Shown here: positions 1 through 7,476 of the stretch, piece by piece
How the letters are laid out: every line of letters begins with the position of its first letter
Position numbering within the stretch: the stretch's first letter is position 1
IMG/VR virus record: IMGVR_UViG_2667527591_000023
From: a virus
Lineage: Duplodnaviria; Heunggongvirae; Uroviricota; Caudoviricetes
Reading direction: 5' to 3' (one strand)
DNA: 34,158 nucleotides
Notes under the pieces: generated by a model
What the model was told of the DNA's origin: nothing
Database searches by the model: none
The model's input: only the letters and a program-made list of their open reading frames with translations
Program-made: the position numbers and the translations under genes

Positions 1-1032
1 TCAAAAACTTGCTATTGATGTTGGTAGTGTTGCCAGCGGATTAAACCGTAATGCAGTTTCCAGGTGATCCGGTGCCAGATGTGCGTAACGCATAGTCATT
101 TTTATGTCGTGATGTCCGAGGATTTTTTGCAAAGCAAGGATATTTCCACCCGACATCATAAAATGCGCCGCAAACGTATGGCGCAGAACGTGTGTCAGTT
201 GACCGCGAGGGAGCACGATAGACGTTTTTTCCATCACGGATAAAAATTGAAAATAGCAGTCTGTGAAGAAATTGAACCCATCAAGCGCCATGATCTCTTC
301 GTAAAGCTCTTTACTGATAGGGATGCTTCTGTTTTTCTTCCCCTTCGTTCTTACAAAGGTAATTCGGTATTTGGTCACCTGTGAGCGGGTAAGATTTACG
401 GCTTCACGCCAGCGTGCGCCAGTGCTTAAGCATATCTTAACTACCAGTGCCAGAATTGGGTCCTGACGTTTACAATCAGCCAGCAATTCAACAATCTGTT
501 CATGGGTAAGCCATGCCATCTCTTTTTCTGCGATGGTGAATTTTCGCATGTTCTCCAGTGGGTTCGGATACGACCATTCGCCCAGGCGGGATAGTTCGCT
601 AAAAACACTACTAAGATAGCTTTGCTCCAGGTTAATAGTGACTGGGCTTGCTCCTTTTTTCCATTTCTCGCTGAAGTAGATCTCACCCGTCAGGCGTTTA
701 TCTCGATAGTGGGCAAACATTTTAGATGTGAGATCGGTTGCAAGGGGATTGCCCAGAGCGTCAACCATCAACAGCAATTTGTCATAGACATGCTGCCCAG
801 CGGTTAGAGATTTACCATGTAGTTTGAACCATAGCTCAACTACGTCTTTCAGTGTTCGACGATCCACTGATTCACCCAGCCAGGGCTTTGCTTCGGTTTC
901 TTCCATCGTGTGGCGCTCAAAAGCCAGAGCTTCGCCTTTGGTGGCGAATTGTTTACGCACACGACGCCCACTACGTCCGGCGGGGTAACATTCGCAAAGC
1001 CATTTCCCTGTGGTGAGTTTTCGTACTGCCAT
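1..1032 (-). CDS. int: P2-family tyrosine integrase (343 aa from MAVRKL; in-frame upstream extension to 1188 unlikely)
   Basis: C-terminal tyrosine recombinase motifs (LRHTFA..H..GG, ILGHxxxxMTMRYAHL); N-terminus MAVRKL..GK resembles P2 Int; stop codon at 1..3. Confidence 0.9.
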   Translation of the reverse strand: MAVRKLTTGKWLCECYPAGRSGRRVRKQFATKGEALAFERHTMEETEAKPWLGESVDRRTLKDVVELWFKLHGKSLTAGQHVYDKLLLMVDALGNPLATDLTSKMFAHYRDKRLTGEIYFSEKWKKGASPVTINLEQSYLSSVFSELSRLGEWSYPNPLENMRKFTIAEKEMAWLTHEQIVELLADCKRQDPILALVVKICLSTGARWREAVNLTRSQVTKYRITFVRTKGKKNRSIPISKELYEEIMALDGFNFFTDCYFQFLSVMEKTSIVLPRGQLTHVLRHTFAAHFMMSGGNILALQKILGHHDIKMTMRYAHLAPDHLETALRFNPLATLPTSIASF

Positions 1033-1220
1033 AAAAAATGCCCTCCAGTAGAGAGCATTTTTACTGTATGTATAACCAGTGTCAATGTATGAAATCCTAC
1101 GACCATACATCTCACTGAAGCCATAATGAAGTTGGCTATTCTTTTTGCTATGTGAGCATGTAACTTTTGCGGTTAACCTGCGGCTCATTTTTATTTTAGA
1201 CGCAGATATAAAAGCAAAAG

Positions 1221-1412
1221 TTATCGTGAGTTTTTAGTACAGATTTTTTTGGATTTACTAATAGTTCCATCATTGCAAACGAATTTGCCATCTGAGGTAC
1301 AGTGAGAAACACCTCCCTTTTTCCCTGAGCAGGGATAATTTCTAGCATAGGTAGTTAGTGGGTTTAATAACAAAGAACATGACAAAACCACAAAAAATAC
1401 CTTACCAAGCAT
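1221..1412 (-). CDS. Small secreted cysteine-rich protein (63 aa), hypothetical; moron between int and cI
   Basis: Strong RBS GGGAGG before ATG; N-terminal hydrophobic signal-like segment; 5 Cys; locus visibly AT-rich. Confidence 0.6.
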
Positions 1413-1427
1413 AGTTTCCTCCCGGTA

Positions 1428-2084
1428 CTATTTAACATACTTGACTGTTAAACTTATAATTTTACCAATTATTTCAATGTCTTCTATCTTGCATTCGAAG
1501 GCTCTGTTTCCACCCTCGACGAAGATTCTTCCACCGGGTAAACGAGTAATGTCACGGATCGTTATTTCGCCATCAATACTTATTACCCATTTACCATCAC
1601 GTATATCATCAAATTCTTTATCACAAATAAATTCAGAATTGTTATCTGTGATGACAAAAGGTTTTTTAAACGCAGAGGGTAGAAATCCCTTATCAAAAAT
1701 ATAAAAACCGTCTTTCTGCAATGCTCCATCAGACAATAAATATTTTTCTACTTCTATAGTATTTGTATTTGCTGATGCTTGCTTTGAACCATGCCCTGTT
1801 GTTAGCCAATTAAGCGAGGTGCCCGTTTCAAGGGCGCACTGGATTACCCAATCTGCTGGAAAAATATCACGCATATAGCGCGTTGCCATGGTGCTCTTAG
1901 AAACACCTAAATGATCACAGAGAGCCTGACGGGTACCGAACCCATATGCTTCAACTAAACGTTCTATGGCTTTCTTACCGCCGCTATTGAAATCCACAAG
2001 TCCTCCAAAGAAATCCAAAATTCGTTGACAGATTCCAAAAGCGATCTTAAAGTTGAACCAGAAGTGTTCTTTTGGAGCCTTCAC
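1428..2084 (-). CDS. cI: Phage 186-type CI immunity repressor; start codon uncertain (track ORF begins at GTG, internal GTG/TTG starts possible)
   Basis: Motif LVEAYGFG....L.HLG.S.S..A.RY.R...P..W...CALETG..L.WL.TG matches the 186 CI N-terminal domain as I recall it. Confidence 0.8.
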   Translation of the reverse strand: MKAPKEHFWFNFKIAFGICQRILDFFGGLVDFNSGGKKAIERLVEAYGFGTRQALCDHLGVSKSTMATRYMRDIFPADWVIQCALETGTSLNWLTTGHGSKQASANTNTIEVEKYLLSDGALQKDGFYIFDKGFLPSAFKKPFVITDNNSEFICDKEFDDIRDGKWVISIDGEITIRDITRLPGGRIFVEGGNRAFECKIEDIEIIGKIISLTVKYVK

Positions 2085-2142
2085 TACTAATCACGACAAA
2101 CAACGGCTCGCCACAAGCCATATCTAGAAGGAATGTTGCCTT
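2085..2142. promoter_or_regulatory. Divergent early switch region between cI and apl/cox (186 pR/pL equivalent); operators not resolved
   Basis: Intergenic gap between divergently transcribed repressor and first early gene. Confidence 0.35.
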
Positions 2143-2346
2143 ATGACACCTAACATTTCAATTACTCTGAATACACCACATGTCACAATCGAACGTTATA
2201 GCGAACTGACTGGCCTTTCTATTGATACGATTAACGACATGTTGGCTGATGGCCGACTACCTCGTCATCGTCTTCGTAAAGACAAAAAACGTGAAAAGGT
2301 AATGATTAACCTGGCTGCTCTGACTGTTGATGCTTTGTCTGCTTAA
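2143..2346 (+). CDS. Apl/Cox-like small DNA-binding protein (excisionase/early regulator), 67 aa
   Basis: First gene of the rightward early operon; small basic protein; position equivalent to 186 apl / P2 cox. Confidence 0.55.
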
Positions 2347-3984: not shown

Positions 3985-4211
3985 TGGCTGATGCAATGGA
4001 TCTCGTACAGCAGCGCGTTGAAGAAGAACGCCAGCGTCATATCCGTGCTGCCCGCGCCAAAACGCCGGGCGTGTCCCGCGTGCTTTGCATTGAGTGTGAA
4101 GCAGCAATTCCGCCAGCACGCCGCCGTGCCATTCCTGGAGTGCAGCTTTGCATTACCTGCCAGGAAATCGCAGAGCTGAAAGGCAAACATTACAACGGAG
4201 GTGCTGTATGA
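3984..4211 (+). CDS. TraR/DksA-family C4 zinc-finger protein (75 aa)
   Basis: C-x2-C ... C-x2-C motif (CIECEA .. CITCQ); translationally coupled on both sides. Confidence 0.8.
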   Translation: MADAMDLVQQRVEEERQRHIRAARAKTPGVSRVLCIECEAAIPPARRRAIPGVQLCITCQEIAELKGKHYNGGAV

Positions 4212-5065
4212 GCACCATCCTGAAATGGGCGGGAAATAAAACTGCCATTATGTCCGAACTGAAAAAACACCTTCCTGCTGGCCCGCGACTGGTTGAACCT
4301 TTCGCGGGTTCCTGTGCTGTGATGATGGAGACGGATTACCCCAGCTATCTTGTTGCGGATATTAATCCTGATTTAATCAACCTCTATAAAAAGGTTGCTG
4401 CTGATTGTGAGGCGTTTATATCTCGTGCCAGAGCTTTATTTGAGGAAGCAAACAGGGAGGTGGCTTATTACAACATAAGGCAGGAGTTTAATTACTCCAC
4501 TGAAATTACTGATTTCATGAAAGCGATATATTTTCTGTATCTCAATCGTCATGGTTACCGTGGGTTATGTCGCTATAACAAGAGCGGGTATTTCAACATT
4601 CCCTACGGTAATTATAAAAATCCGTATTTCCCTGAAAAAGAAATTCGCGCATTTGCAGAGAAAGCCCAGCGGGCAACGTTTATCTGCGCCAGCTTTGATG
4701 AAACGCTGGCGATGTTGAAGGCGGGGGATGTGGTGTATTGCGATCCGCCGTATGACGGTACGTTTTCCGGCTATCACACTGATGGTTTCACTGAAGATGA
4801 CCAGTATCACCTGGCATCCGTTCTTGAACATCGGTCATCAGAAGGACATCCGGTCATTGTTTCTAACAGTGACACATCCCTGATCCGTTCGCTGTATCGC
4901 AATTTTACTCACCACTACATCAAGGCAAAACGCAGCATCGGCGTAGCAGCTGGTGAGAGTAAATCTGCAACAGAAATCATCGCTGTTTCTGGGGCGCGCT
5001 GCTGGGTGGGATTTGATCCTTCGCGTGGCGTGGATAGTTCTGCCGTGTATGGAGTGCGTGCATGA
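4208..5065 (+). CDS. dam: Orphan DNA adenine methyltransferase, Dam-like (N6-adenine, probably GATC), 285 aa
   Basis: KWAGNK, EPFAGS, DPPY motifs; colinear with E. coli Dam; ATGA overlap with upstream and downstream genes. Confidence 0.9.
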
Positions 5066-7476
5066 GCCATGCTGATATGAACAACTGCAGCGGCTTTAAC
5101 GAGGCCGCCGCAGCATTCTCATGGAACAGCCCGAAAAAGGCTATTAACCCTTATCTGGACCCGGCGGAAGTTGCGCCGGTTTCTGCGCTTTCAAACCTGA
5201 TCACTCTGTACGCTGCCGATAACGAGCAGGAACAACTGCGCCGCGAGGCACTGAGTGATCAGGTCTGGGAGCGTTATTTCTTTAATGCATCCCGTGATCC
5301 TGTCCAGCGCGAAATGGAGCAGGATAAGCTCATTAGCCGGGCAAAGCTGGCGCATGAGCAGCAGCGTTTTAATCCGGACATGGTCATACTGGCGGACGTT
5401 AACGCCCAGCCTTCCCATATCAGCAAGCCGCTGATGCAACGTATTGAATACTTCAGCAGCCTGGGCAGGCCAAAGGCTTATTCCCGCTATTTGCGTGAGA
5501 CGATTAAGCCATGTCTGGAACGACTGGAGCATGTACGCGACAGTCAGCTATCCACTTCTTTTCGCTTTATGGCAAGCCATGAAGGGCTGGACGGCCTGCT
5601 GATCTTGCCTGAAATGAGTCAGGATCAGGTGAAACGCCTGTCTACTCTTGTCGCTGCGCATATGAGTATGTGTCTTGATGCCGCTTGTGGTGATTTGTAT
5701 GCCACCGATGATGTTAAGCCAGAAGAAATCCGCAAGACATGGGAAAAGGTGGCAGCAGAAACCCTGCGACTGGATGTCATACCGCCTGCGTTTGAGCAAC
5801 TCCGCCGGAAAAGAAACCGCCGTAAACCCGTACCCTATGAACTCATTCCGGGTTCGCTGGCGCGTATGTTGTGCGCCGACTGGTGGTATCGGAAATTGTG
5901 GAAGATGCGTTGTGAATGGCGGGAAGAGCAGTTGCGTGCTGTTTGCCTGGTCAGCAAAAAAGCATCTCCCTATGTCAGCTATGAAGCCGTGATGCATAAA
6001 CGTGAGCAGCGCCGTAAGTCGCTGGAGTTTTTCCGTTCTCATGAACTGGTGAACGAAGACGGCGACACGCTGGACATGGAGGATGTGGTAAACGCCAGCA
6101 GCAGCAACCCTGCGCATCGCCGCAATGAGATGATGGCCTGTGTTAAAGGTCTGGAGCTTATCGCGGAAATGCGCGGTGACTGCGCCGTTTTCTACACCAT
6201 CACCTGTCCGTCACGTTTCCATTCCACGCTAAATAACGGCAGGCCCAACCCGACCTGGACAAATGCGACGGTAAGACAAAGCAGTGATTATCTGGTCGGC
6301 ATGTTTGCTGCATTTCGTAAGGCGATGCACAAAGCCGGATTGCGCTGGTATGGCGTGCGGGTGGCTGAGCCGCATCATGACGGCACAGTTCACTGGCACC
6401 TGTTGTGTTTCATGCGCAAAAAAGACCGCCGCGCCATTACTGCATTGTTGCGTAAGTTTGCTATCCGTGAAGACCGCGAGGAGCTGGGTAATAACACGGG
6501 GCCACGCTTTAAGTCTGAGCTGATAAACCCGCGCAAAGGAACGCCGACTAGCTACATCGCGAAATACATCAGTAAGAACATTGACGGGCGTGGTCTGGCT
6601 GGCGAGATCAGCAAGGAAACGGGTAAATCTCTGCGTGATAACGCTGAATACGTTAATGCCTGGGCGTCTCTGCATCGTGTTCAGCAATTCCGCTTCTTTG
6701 GCATTCCGGGGCGTCAGGCTTACCGTGAACTGCGATTGCTGGCTGGTCAGGCGGCAAGGCAACAGGGTGACAAAAAAGCAGGTGCGCCGGTACTGGATAA
6801 CCCGCGCCTTGATGCCATTCTGGCTGCAGCTGATGCTGGTTGTTTTGCCACCTACATCATGAAGCAGGGCGGCGTACTGGTTCCCCGTAAATATCACCTC
6901 ATCAGAACCGCTTATGAAATCAACGAAGAGCCGACCGCCTATGGCGATCACGGCATTCGTATTTATGGCATCTGGTCACCCATTGCAGAGGGTAAGATCT
7001 GCACTCATGCAGTGAAGTGGAAAATGGTTCGTAAGGCCGTTGACGTTCAGGAGGCGGCAGCCGACCAGGGCGCTTGCGCCCCTTGGACTCGTGGCAATAA
7101 CTGTCCCCTTGCTGAAAATTTGAACCAACAAGGGAAAGACAAATCAGCTGATGGGGATACCAGAACGGATATCACCCGCATGGATGACAAGGAGTTGCAC
7201 GATTACCTGCACAGTATGAGCAAAAAAGAGCGCCGGGAACTGGCAGCAAGATTACGCCTGGTTAAACCGAAACGGCGTAAAGACTACAAACAGCGAATTA
7301 CAGAGTATCAGCGTCAGCAGCTCGTCTATGAACTGAAGTCCAGAGGATTTGATGGCAGCGAGAAAGAGGTCAATTTGCTCCTTCGCGGCGGCAGTATTCC
7401 GTCAGGAGCAGGCCTGCGTATCTTCTATCGGAACCAGCGTTTGCAGGAAGATGATCAGTGGCGGAACCTGTATTAA
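5062..7476 (+). CDS. A: Replication initiation endonuclease (P2 gpA / 186 RepA family), 804 aa
   Basis: Large early protein; HxH-type block ([10 protein letters not shown]) and size typical of P2 gpA-type rolling-circle initiators. Confidence 0.85.

What the first reader, a model, noticed from the sequence alone, without database searches (positions are those of the whole stretch)
1189..1427. AT-rich moron encoding a small secreted cysteine-rich protein between int and cI
The int-cI interval is visibly AT-rich compared with the rest of the prophage and carries a 63-aa ORF with a strong RBS, a signal-peptide-like N-terminus and five cysteines. It does not belong to the core P2/186 gene set as I know it. 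Small exported proteins at such positions are often lysogenic-conversion or superinfection-exclusion factors expressed from the lysogen.
Basis: partly seen in the sequence, partly recalled or inferred. Interest (0 to 1): 0.5.

Follow-up and report, generated by a model that had tools for sequence, protein, structure and literature searches.

The report
Exported YdcA-family gene after prophage cI
The ORF is a real, strongly conserved gene for a tiny exported, cysteine-stabilised protein of the already catalogued but uncharacterised YdcA family. It sits directly behind the repressor gene of a 186-like prophage, so lysogens probably make it, but its function is still untested.

Summary
Window 1221-1412 (minus strand) encodes a 63-aa protein with a GGGAGG ribosome-binding site. 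It has a Sec-type signal peptide and a 40-aa basic mature part with four family-invariant cysteines; the fifth cysteine lies in the signal peptide.

The gene is already catalogued. RefSeq calls it "YdcA family protein" (WP_000900883.1). It passes the NCBIfam NF007463 cut-off, and near-identical relatives carry Pfam PF27300 (YdcA). It occurs in 628 of 5,426 complete E. coli genomes, including BL21, and is under strong purifying selection (11 synonymous, 1 non-synonymous difference against the BL21 allele).

It is not a classic moron. It starts 15 nt after the cI stop with no promoter of its own, so it reads as cargo inside the lysogenic operon. In phage 186 and RE-2010, cI abuts int. Related prophages fill the same slot with YdcA plus a KAP NTPase (PDC-S20), with PD-Lambda-1, or with unknown genes. 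Haemophilus phage HP2 has an unannotated YdcA gene in the same place.

The only solved relative is Legionella T4SS subunit Dis2. Long YdcA forms sit inside enterobacterial T6SS clusters.

Function is unknown. My best guess is an outer-membrane-proximal periplasmic binding module that protects the lysogen.

The parts
1221..1412 (-). CDS for the 63-aa YdcA-family pre-protein (stop codon at 1221-1223)
   Evidence: ORF list. NCBIfam NF007463 scores 115.8 bits against a cut-off of 93. phrog_6000 at 1.9e-34. RefSeq annotates WP_000900883.1 at the same coordinates in a 99.9% identical prophage. Purifying selection.
1344..1412 (-). Codons 1-23: Sec/signal peptidase I type signal peptide (MLGK / [12 protein letters not shown] / NPLTTYA)
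   Evidence: Hydropathy profile. Ala at -1 invariant or nearly so and a small residue at -3 across homologues. K-12 YdcA is described as having a signal sequence and predicted to be periplasmic (PMC11340327).
1224..1343 (-). Codons 24-63: mature 40-aa domain, pI 9.7, net charge about +7, four invariant Cys
   Evidence: Alignments A1 and A2. Charge calculation. AF2 model with block-mean pLDDT 89-92 over residues 31-50.
1418..1423 (-). Shine-Dalgarno GGGAGG, 5 nt before the ATG
   Evidence: Read from the sequence. Conserved in the BL21 and XYEH3783 alleles.
1428..1997 (-). cI repressor (189 aa from the GTG start used by RefSeq; the ORF extends to 2084). Its stop codon lies 15 nt upstream of the ydcA ATG.
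   Evidence: Pfam Phage_CI_repr 3.3e-31 and Phage_CI_C 5.2e-29. RefSeq coordinates. 33% identical to 186 CI.
1161..1223 (-). Long RNA hairpin directly after the ydcA stop, with no U-tract; 3' UTR structure of unknown role
   Evidence: Fold of 1033-1230 on the minus strand: -59.4 kcal/mol, z = -5.3.
1057..1085 (-). Sigma-70-like promoter (TTGACA, 17 nt spacer, AAAAAT) upstream of int; belongs to the int module
   Evidence: Consensus scan. Conserved in the int modules of other phages.
1033..1064 (-). GC-rich hairpin plus U6 abutting the int ATG. It is terminator-like and buries the int RBS, so it probably insulates int from read-through of the cargo slot.
   Evidence: Fold. The stem is kept with a different sequence in KP12 and ECCHD184.
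1..1032 (-). P2/186-type tyrosine integrase
   Evidence: Pfam Int_N and Phage_integrase. RefSeq start at 1032.

Best explanation
The ORF is an accessory cargo gene inserted into the lysogenic (pL/pE) operon of a 186-like prophage, directly behind cI. In phage 186 cI and int abut.

Shown by the sequence and by comparison:
- It encodes a pre-protein with a Sec/signal peptidase I signal peptide.
- The mature product is 40 aa, strongly basic, carries four invariant cysteines, and belongs to the YdcA family.

Inferred:
- It is co-transcribed with cI and therefore made continuously in lysogens.
- It is exported to the periplasm and oxidised to two disulfides.
- There it acts as a small binding module near the inner face of the outer membrane. 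This follows from its only solved relative, Legionella Dis2, which docks on the outer-membrane lipoproteins DotK, DotC and DotD.

Most speculative step: binding to an envelope component alters the lysogen's envelope to its benefit. The likeliest benefit is interference with incoming phages or other DNA or effector injecting machines. This rests on two facts. The same cI-int slot carries known or candidate anti-phage genes in sister prophages, and the family recurs as lone cargo on phages and small plasmids.
For: Identity and coding status:
- NF007463 above its cut-off; Pfam PF27300 YdcA on relatives; RefSeq name.
- 11 synonymous to 1 non-synonymous difference against the BL21 allele.
- Present in 628 of 5,426 E. 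coli genomes. The exact sequence is on at least 1,000 contigs.

Export:
- Hydropathy and the -3/-1 rule.
- K-12 YdcA is predicted periplasmic.

Operon position:
- 15 nt after the cI stop, with no promoter predicted.
- The 186 record annotates pL/pE driving cI-int-orf69 as the lysogenic operon.
- Tight cI-to-YdcA linkage also holds in Klebsiella, Hafnia and other Escherichia prophages and in Yersinia.
- In Haemophilus HP2 the YdcA ATG overlaps the cI stop.
- ydcA travels with cI, not with int (H126 and H127).

Slot as a cargo or defence hotspot:
- KAP NTPase = PDC-S20, 1.3e-171.
- DUF4041 protein = PD-Lambda-1, 4.1e-120, in a prophage with the same integrase and attachment site.
- A minor int-to-primase defence hotspot in P2-like phages is reported in PMC13586616.

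Outer-membrane-proximal binding module:
- Dis2 matches at 3e-5 by phmmer and 1.3e-5 by profile, and is the top Foldseek hit at probability 0.95.
- Dis2 sits near the outer membrane, is pinned by disulfides and contacts DotK, DotC and DotD.
- 18 of 80 species-level loci place a long YdcA form inside T6SS clusters, two genes after the TssJ lipoprotein gene.

Mobile-element cargo:
- Moraxella and Acinetobacter phages.
- A 3.9-kb mobilisable plasmid with five genes.
Against: - There are no expression data and no phenotype.
- There is no PADLOC match, and PHROGs lists the family as unknown function.
- The family is mostly non-phage. Only 5 of 80 species-level loci have a cI upstream, so its role may be housekeeping rather than defensive.
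- The only reported phenotype of the K-12 paralogue is sensitivity to 3-hydroxypropionate.
- Deleting dis2 has only subtle effects.
- 186, RE-2010 and PD-Lambda-1-carrying sister prophages do without the gene.
- One copy is IS-disrupted.
Confidence: 0.45

Rival explanations
1. It is a host-fitness, envelope-stress factor. The prophage copy does what chromosomal YdcA is suspected to do, which is to protect the envelope under acid or organic-acid stress. It would raise lysogen fitness without acting on other phages.
For: It is 57% identical to K-12 YdcA. Deleting ydcA makes E. coli W sensitive to 300 mM 3-hydroxypropionate, and ydcA is reported as acid-induced via YdcI (PMC7642389). Most family members are chromosomal.
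Against: Most E. coli already have chromosomal ydcA, so a second copy is not obviously needed. The phage lineage is a distinct subfamily: it reaches only 68.5 bits on NF007462, below the cut-off of 118. The slot it occupies carries defence genes in sister prophages.
Confidence: 0.25
2. It is a released cationic antimicrobial peptide. The 40-aa basic, disulfide-bonded product would be liberated on prophage-induced lysis or leakage and harm competitors.
For: Net charge about +7, four cysteines, 4.3 kDa. A YdcA-family gene was listed among genes unique to antimicrobial-positive Pseudomonas protegens strains (PMC13541209).
Against: There is no immunity gene and no export route across the outer membrane. 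It is expressed from the lysogenic operon, not the late operon. Homologues are structural parts of secretion machines (Dis2) or are fused to nucleases. The P. protegens link is only correlative.
Confidence: 0.05
3. The protein does not matter. The insert serves only as a spacer or regulator that uncouples int from cI translation and transcription.
For: In 186, cI and int overlap. Here they are separated, and a terminator-like hairpin plus an int-proximal promoter precede int.
Against: Purifying selection on the amino-acid sequence is extreme while synonymous sites are saturated. The signal peptide and the four Cys are conserved. The hairpin and promoter belong to the int module and are present without ydcA.
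Confidence: 0.03
4. It is a chance ORF in AT-rich spacer DNA.
For: It is short and lies in low-GC DNA.
Against: It passes a curated family model, has hundreds of homologues, and shows 11 synonymous to 1 non-synonymous difference against the BL21 allele.
Confidence: 0.01

Closest known systems
E. coli K-12 YdcA (b1419; NCBIfam NF007462; Pfam PF27300 YdcA)
   Same: Same architecture of a signal peptide plus a roughly 35-aa PCSGxKGG...C...[17 protein letters not shown] domain. 57% identity. Function unknown; predicted periplasmic.
   Different: The window protein is a paralogue, not the orthologue. It scores 68.5 bits on NF007462 (cut-off 118) but 115.8 on NF007463. It is prophage-borne behind cI rather than chromosomal beside rydC and hokB. 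It is also more basic.
Legionella pneumophila Dis2 (Lpg0823), outer-membrane-cap subunit of the Dot/Icm T4SS (PDB 7MUC chain AN)
   Same: It is the only solved relative. It shares the Cys spacing and the GG..C...G..VCN.G motif and is the top Foldseek hit. It is periplasmic, disulfide-pinned and lies close to the outer membrane.
   Different: Dis2 has two lobes and five disulfides and is a stoichiometric T4SS subunit. The window protein has one lobe, four Cys and no T4SS context. The similarity is modest (E about 1e-5).
Prophage envelope-located superinfection-exclusion or lysogenic-conversion proteins (phi80/N15 Cor, T5 Llp, T4 Sp and Imm, HK97 gp15, P22 SieA), cited from general knowledge
   Same: A small envelope-targeted protein placed so that the prophage would express it in the lysogenic state.
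   Different: There is no sequence relationship to any of them: no PADLOC hit and no functional PHROG or Pfam hit. It is soluble periplasmic rather than a lipoprotein or membrane protein. No exclusion phenotype is known.
Cargo and defence hotspots of P2-like phages (Rousset et al. 2022, PMC9122126; PMC13586616)
   Same: A variable slot between conserved genes that holds different cargo in sister prophages, including PD-Lambda-1 and PDC-S20. A minor int-to-primase hotspot is reported.
   Different: The well-described P2 hotspot lies between gpA and gpQ. The cI-int slot has not been resolved at this level, and YdcA is not mentioned in PMC13586616.

Membership tests
YdcA family, prophage subfamily (NCBIfam NF007463 / PRK10040.1-2) | Whole-protein score above the curated cut-off of 93 bits | tested here: met
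   115.8 bits, E 5.3e-34, residues 5-63 on profile positions 1-58 of 58.
YdcA family (Pfam PF27300) | Match to the Pfam YdcA model | tested here: inconclusive
   The local Pfam copy lacks PF27300. The precomputed hit is on record for the cluster representative P0001, which is 98% identical, and for nearly all listed homologues.
YdcA family | N-terminal Sec signal peptide followed by a single roughly 35-aa domain with four invariant Cys and the PCSGxKGG / F.C.DG..S.SK motifs | tested here: met
   Invariant in alignment A2 (30 sequences): P27 C28 S29 K32 G33 G34 C38 F44 C46 G49 S52 S54 K55 C58. G42, K43 and D48 are invariant in A1 (20 sequences) and nearly invariant in A2.
K-12 YdcA equivalog (NCBIfam NF007462) | Score above the cut-off of 118 bits | tested here: not met
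   68.5 bits. K-12 YdcA itself scores 147.3.
Phage moron (independent transcription unit added between core genes) | Inserted between genes that are adjacent in related phages | tested here: met
   cI abuts int in 186 and RE-2010.
Phage moron | Own promoter | tested here: not met
   There are only 15 nt between the cI stop and the ATG, and no minus-strand promoter-like site lies upstream of the ORF. This is a consensus scan only.
Phage moron | Own terminator | tested here: inconclusive
   A hairpin follows the stop but has no U-tract. The terminator-like hairpin at 1033-1064 belongs to the int module.
Phage moron | Base composition unlike the surrounding genome | tested here: met
   35% against 52.7% GC, but the low-GC block also covers the C-terminal half of cI.
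Superinfection-exclusion or anti-phage defence proteins | Homology to a known defence or exclusion family | tested here: not met
   No PADLOC hit. phrog_6000 is 'unknown function'.
Superinfection-exclusion or anti-phage defence proteins | Expression from the prophage and an exclusion phenotype | not testable with these tools
   Needs RNA-seq of a lysogen and phage plating assays.
Bacterial lipoprotein | Lipobox [LVI][ASTVI][GAS]C after an adequate hydrophobic region | tested here: not met
   V-L-S-C12 has Leu at -2, and the Cys sits only 12 residues in. This Cys is absent or differently flanked in homologues.
Dis2-type T4SS outer-membrane-cap subunit | Two tandem lobes with five disulfides, encoded in an organism with a Dot/Icm system | tested here: not met
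   Single lobe, four Cys, prophage context. Only domain-level homology.

The most novel reading that the evidence does not exclude
YdcA-type mini-domains may be a general, previously unrecognised class of disulfide-pinned periplasmic clips that dock onto outer-membrane lipoproteins of trans-envelope machines. Dis2 in the Dot/Icm T4SS would be one example, and the long form encoded two genes after tssJ in enterobacterial T6SS clusters another. On this reading, temperate phages and small plasmids have captured a free-standing copy and express it with the repressor, and it acts as a new kind of periplasmic exclusion factor against incoming injection machines (phage tails, T4SS or T6SS).
Probability: 0.1. 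Interest if true: 0.7.

Novelty: already known. Interest (0 to 1): 0.38.

Why it matters
About one in nine complete E. coli genomes, including the workhorse BL21, carries this gene directly behind a prophage repressor. The same family sits in the same slot in a Haemophilus phage. It also turns up inside T6SS clusters, as the lobes of a Legionella T4SS subunit that the T4SS literature describes as having no obvious homologues outside the Legionellales, and on tiny plasmids. Despite this spread, nobody knows what a YdcA domain does.

The gene is small, non-essential and easy to delete or express. A phage, conjugation, T6SS and stress panel would quickly show whether it is a new exclusion factor or an envelope-fitness factor. 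The answer would also give a first handle on Dis2 and on the T6SS-linked form.

As it stands, the finding is a correctly spotted but already annotated accessory gene of unknown function.

Tried and rejected
- Local Pfam gave no significant hit because its copy lacks PF27300.
- PADLOC gave no hit for the ORF or for the long T6SS-linked form.
- Rfam found nothing above chance in 900-2300.
- Weak PDB sequence hits to potato type II proteinase inhibitors and bulb lectins (E 0.24-3.5) were treated as chance, because the profile search did not recover them.
- The lipoprotein reading (Cys12) was rejected for position, a poor lipobox and lack of conservation.
- The IMG/VR scan returned only near-identical copies, so it gave no diversity.
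- Literature searches found no study of the phage gene. 'ydcA' on plasmid pS88 is an unrelated methylase name.
- The plus-strand promoter-like site at 1432-1460 and the plus-strand terminator-like sites were not pursued. Promoter-like sites are not enriched over shuffles in this region (3 found, 3.7 expected), and the terminator-like sites lie on the wrong strand for the minus-strand genes.

Full report
**What is there.**
The minus strand of the window reads cI (1428-1997 by the RefSeq start; the ORF runs to 2084), then a 15-nt spacer containing GGGAGG, then a 63-aa ORF (1412 down to 1221). A 188-nt non-coding stretch follows, then int, which starts at 1032 and ends at position 1. On the other side of cI lie an Apl/Cox-like gene, cII (Phage_CP76), fil and the other genes of a 186-type early region.

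**Is it a gene?**
Yes.
- It passes the curated NCBIfam equivalog NF007463 (115.8 bits against 93) and matches phrog_6000 at 1.9e-34.
- RefSeq annotates exactly these coordinates in a 99.9% identical prophage as 'YdcA family protein' WP_000900883.1.
- The exact sequence is recorded on at least 1,000 contigs, under the names 'hypothetical protein', 'YdcA family protein' and, in UniRef, 'Conjugal transfer protein'.
- The 239-nt stretch is found in 628 of 5,426 complete E. coli genomes, including BL21 and ATCC 8739. In every sampled row it lies under an annotated CDS; one of these is a truncated pseudogene split by an IS5-family element.
- Against the BL21 allele, 12 of 192 nt differ: 11 synonymous and 1 non-synonymous.
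- Between prophage lineages from Escherichia, Klebsiella, Hafnia and Yersinia, synonymous sites are saturated, yet at most 3 of 29 core residues change.
- BL21's prophage is decayed, with truncated cII and replication genes, but it keeps cI-ydcA-int intact.

**The protein.**
Residues 1-23 form a standard Sec signal: K4, then hydrophobic V5-L16, then P18 and T-Y-A. Ala at -1 is invariant or nearly so and the -3 residue is small across homologues.

The mature 40-aa peptide has pI 9.7 and a net charge of about +7. In the 30-sequence alignment the invariant residues are P27 C28 S29 K32 G33 G34 C38 F44 C46 G49 S52 S54 K55 C58; G42, K43 and D48 are invariant in the 20-sequence alignment and nearly invariant in the larger one.

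Two periplasmic disulfides are inferred.

The AF2 model is confident only over the core, with block-mean pLDDT 89-92 for residues 31-50 and two short strands.

**Composition.**
The finding's span is 35.1% GC against 52.7% for the window, in the lowest 1% of windows. The low-GC block is 1033-1800 and includes the C-terminal half of cI at 33%. This is the same block that is conserved as a unit (89-95% identity over window 1000-1970) in prophages whose cI N-terminal domains differ.

**Operon context.**
In the reference 186 record, cI and int overlap by one base. The lysogenic operon from pL/pE is annotated as cI-int-orf69 followed by a terminator. RE-2010 also has the repressor abutting int. The window therefore carries an insertion inside that operon.

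There is no room and no predicted promoter between cI and the ORF, so co-transcription with cI in lysogens is the natural inference. It has not been shown. This makes the ORF operon cargo rather than a textbook moron.

The gene is linked to cI rather than to int. Some E. coli prophages share window 1244-2150 but have a different integrase side (H126 and H127). Window 1000-1092 travels with int into unrelated contexts.

**The slot is variable.**
| Prophage or phage | Content between cI and int |
|---|---|
| Other Escherichia and Klebsiella prophages | YdcA, then a KAP NTPase (PADLOC PDC-S20, 1.3e-171) |
| Hafnia prophage | YdcA, then a 347-aa unknown |
| Klebsiella phage 4LV2017 | A 349-aa unknown, no YdcA |
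| E. coli ECCHD184 and Klebsiella phage KP12 | A DUF4041 protein (PD-Lambda-1, 4.1e-120), no YdcA |

ECCHD184 has the same rcdA attachment site as the window's prophage type, and its integrase is identical to that of a ydcA-carrying prophage.

Haemophilus phage HP2, and its relative S2, have an unannotated 60-aa YdcA gene whose ATG overlaps the cI stop. It is followed by an exported 254-aa ORF and then int. The HP2 cI is only 32% identical to the window's.

Of 140 phage records with this repressor type, only the Haemophilus HP2/S2 records also hit YdcA.

**The family at large.**
- A profile search of 1.84 billion cluster representatives finds 464 clusters. Most are 55-150 aa, and some carry two or three tandem domains.
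- In one genome per species, 143 stretches encode a relative, spread across Alpha-, Beta- and Gammaproteobacteria.
- Only 5 of the 80 retrieved loci have a cI upstream.
- 18 of the 80 encode a roughly 132-140-aa 'long' form inside a T6SS core cluster: TssF-TssG-TssJ-TssE-[YdcA-long]-(T5orf172 protein)-VasL.
- The T5orf172 neighbour itself matches PD-Lambda-1 at 1.9e-86.
- Other architectures fuse the domain to an Endonuclease_NS nuclease or to a PBCV_basic_adap-like motif.
- The family is also cargo in Moraxella and Acinetobacter phages, often unannotated, and on Acinetobacter plasmids, including a 3.9-kb five-gene mobilisable plasmid.

**Structural relative.**
The only solved relative is Dis2 (Lpg0823) of the Legionella Dot/Icm outer-membrane cap.
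- phmmer gives 3e-5 and the profile gives 1.3e-5, with both lobes aligned. It is also the top Foldseek hit at probability 0.95.
- Dis2 sits near the outer membrane and is pinned by five disulfides.
- It contacts the lipoproteins DotK, DotC and DotD.
- It is dispensable for assembly and has subtle effects on translocation.
- The T4SS literature describes it as having no obvious homologues outside the Legionellales.

**What is known about function.**
Very little. K-12 YdcA is 'a small protein of unknown function', predicted periplasmic. Its deletion sensitises E. coli W to 3-hydroxypropionate, and it is said to be acid-induced.

**Interpretation.**
Near certain: this is a real, exported YdcA-family mini-protein encoded as accessory cargo directly after cI.

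Likely (about 0.8): it is co-transcribed with cI in lysogens.

Speculative: what it does. I favour an outer-membrane-proximal binding module that benefits the lysogen by interfering with incoming phages or other injection machines (about 0.35). The grounds are the defence-gene company it keeps in the slot, its recurrence as lone cargo on mobile elements, and the Dis2 and T6SS associations. An envelope or acid-stress fitness role like that suggested for chromosomal YdcA is nearly as likely (about 0.25). The remainder is unknown.

**Novelty.**
The gene and its family are already catalogued, and function is the open question. I did not find three things in the searchable literature: the conserved cI-to-YdcA linkage across Enterobacterales and Haemophilus phages, the homology to Dis2, and the T6SS-cluster long form.

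Noticed in passing
window 1033-1085 (minus strand): Directly before the int ATG there is a GC-rich hairpin plus U6 (AAAAAUGCUCUCU-ACU-GGAGGGCAUUUUUU). It looks like an intrinsic terminator and buries the int RBS. A sigma-70-like promoter (TTGACA, 17 nt, AAAAAT) overlaps its left arm. In KP12 and ECCHD184 the stem is kept with a different sequence (GCCCTC/GAGGGC). This suggests a device that insulates int from read-through of the cargo slot, while int-promoter transcripts would lack the left arm.
   Followed up: partly
window 1161-1223 (minus strand): A long hairpin begins at the ydcA stop codon and has no U-tract. The whole 1033-1230 RNA folds at -59.4 kcal/mol, z = -5.3 against shuffles. Its role is unknown; it could stabilise or process the RNA.
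   Followed up: no
[not shown]
   Followed up: yes
PDB 7MUC chain AN (Legionella Dis2/Lpg0823): Dis2 is described in the T4SS literature as having no obvious homologues outside the Legionellales and no structural similarity in the PDB. It aligns to the YdcA profile as two tandem YdcA-like lobes (E 1.3e-5) and is the top Foldseek hit for the model.
   Followed up: partly
L125 4001-4399, and 17 other loci (L111, L118, L119, L123, L127, L130, L132, L134, L135, L139, L143, L149, L150, L158, L159, L162, L172): A form of about 132-140 aa (truncated to 71 aa in Escherichia ruysiae L127) combines a signal peptide, the YdcA domain, a basic linker and a C-terminal PTCAPLYMxxKPGYTHLPICSGNQY motif. It is encoded inside enterobacterial T6SS core clusters between tssE and vasL, often next to a T5orf172 protein that matches PD-Lambda-1.
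   Followed up: partly
L126 3989-4936 (Methylococcales MAG): A signal peptide plus YdcA domain is fused to a DNA/RNA non-specific endonuclease (Endonuclease_NS, 1.3e-34). Beta-proteobacterial members instead carry a PBCV_basic_adap-like CxC...CTGPRGGxYC tail.
   Followed up: no
L186 2617-4293 (E. coli ECCHD184) and L185 (Klebsiella phage KP12): Sister prophages have PD-Lambda-1 (DUF4041 protein) in the cI-int slot instead of ydcA; ECCHD184 also shares the attachment site and a near-identical integrase. Others carry ydcA plus a KAP NTPase (PDC-S20). The slot behaves as a small defence hotspot.
   Followed up: partly
L187 (Acinetobacter pittii plasmid pApiMCR53a, 3,916 bp) 728-904: A five-gene mobilisable plasmid carries a YdcA-family gene as one of its few cargo genes. 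58 plasmid records in PLSDB hold a relative.
   Followed up: no
L177 3033-4212 (E. coli MB50): The prophage ydcA is split by an IS5-family ISKpn13 insertion. This is the only disrupted copy seen among the sampled rows.
   Followed up: no
window 1432-1460 (plus strand): A near-consensus sigma-70 promoter-like site (TTAACA, 17 nt, TATAAT; 11 of 12 matches) points antisense into the 3' end of cI. It may be a chance product of AT-rich DNA.
   Followed up: no
window 4148-5065 (plus strand): A DNA adenine methylase gene sits in the early operon just upstream of the replication endonuclease gene (5062-7476). The identification comes from the RefSeq annotation of the 99.9% identical prophage. It is another accessory-type gene.
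   Followed up: no
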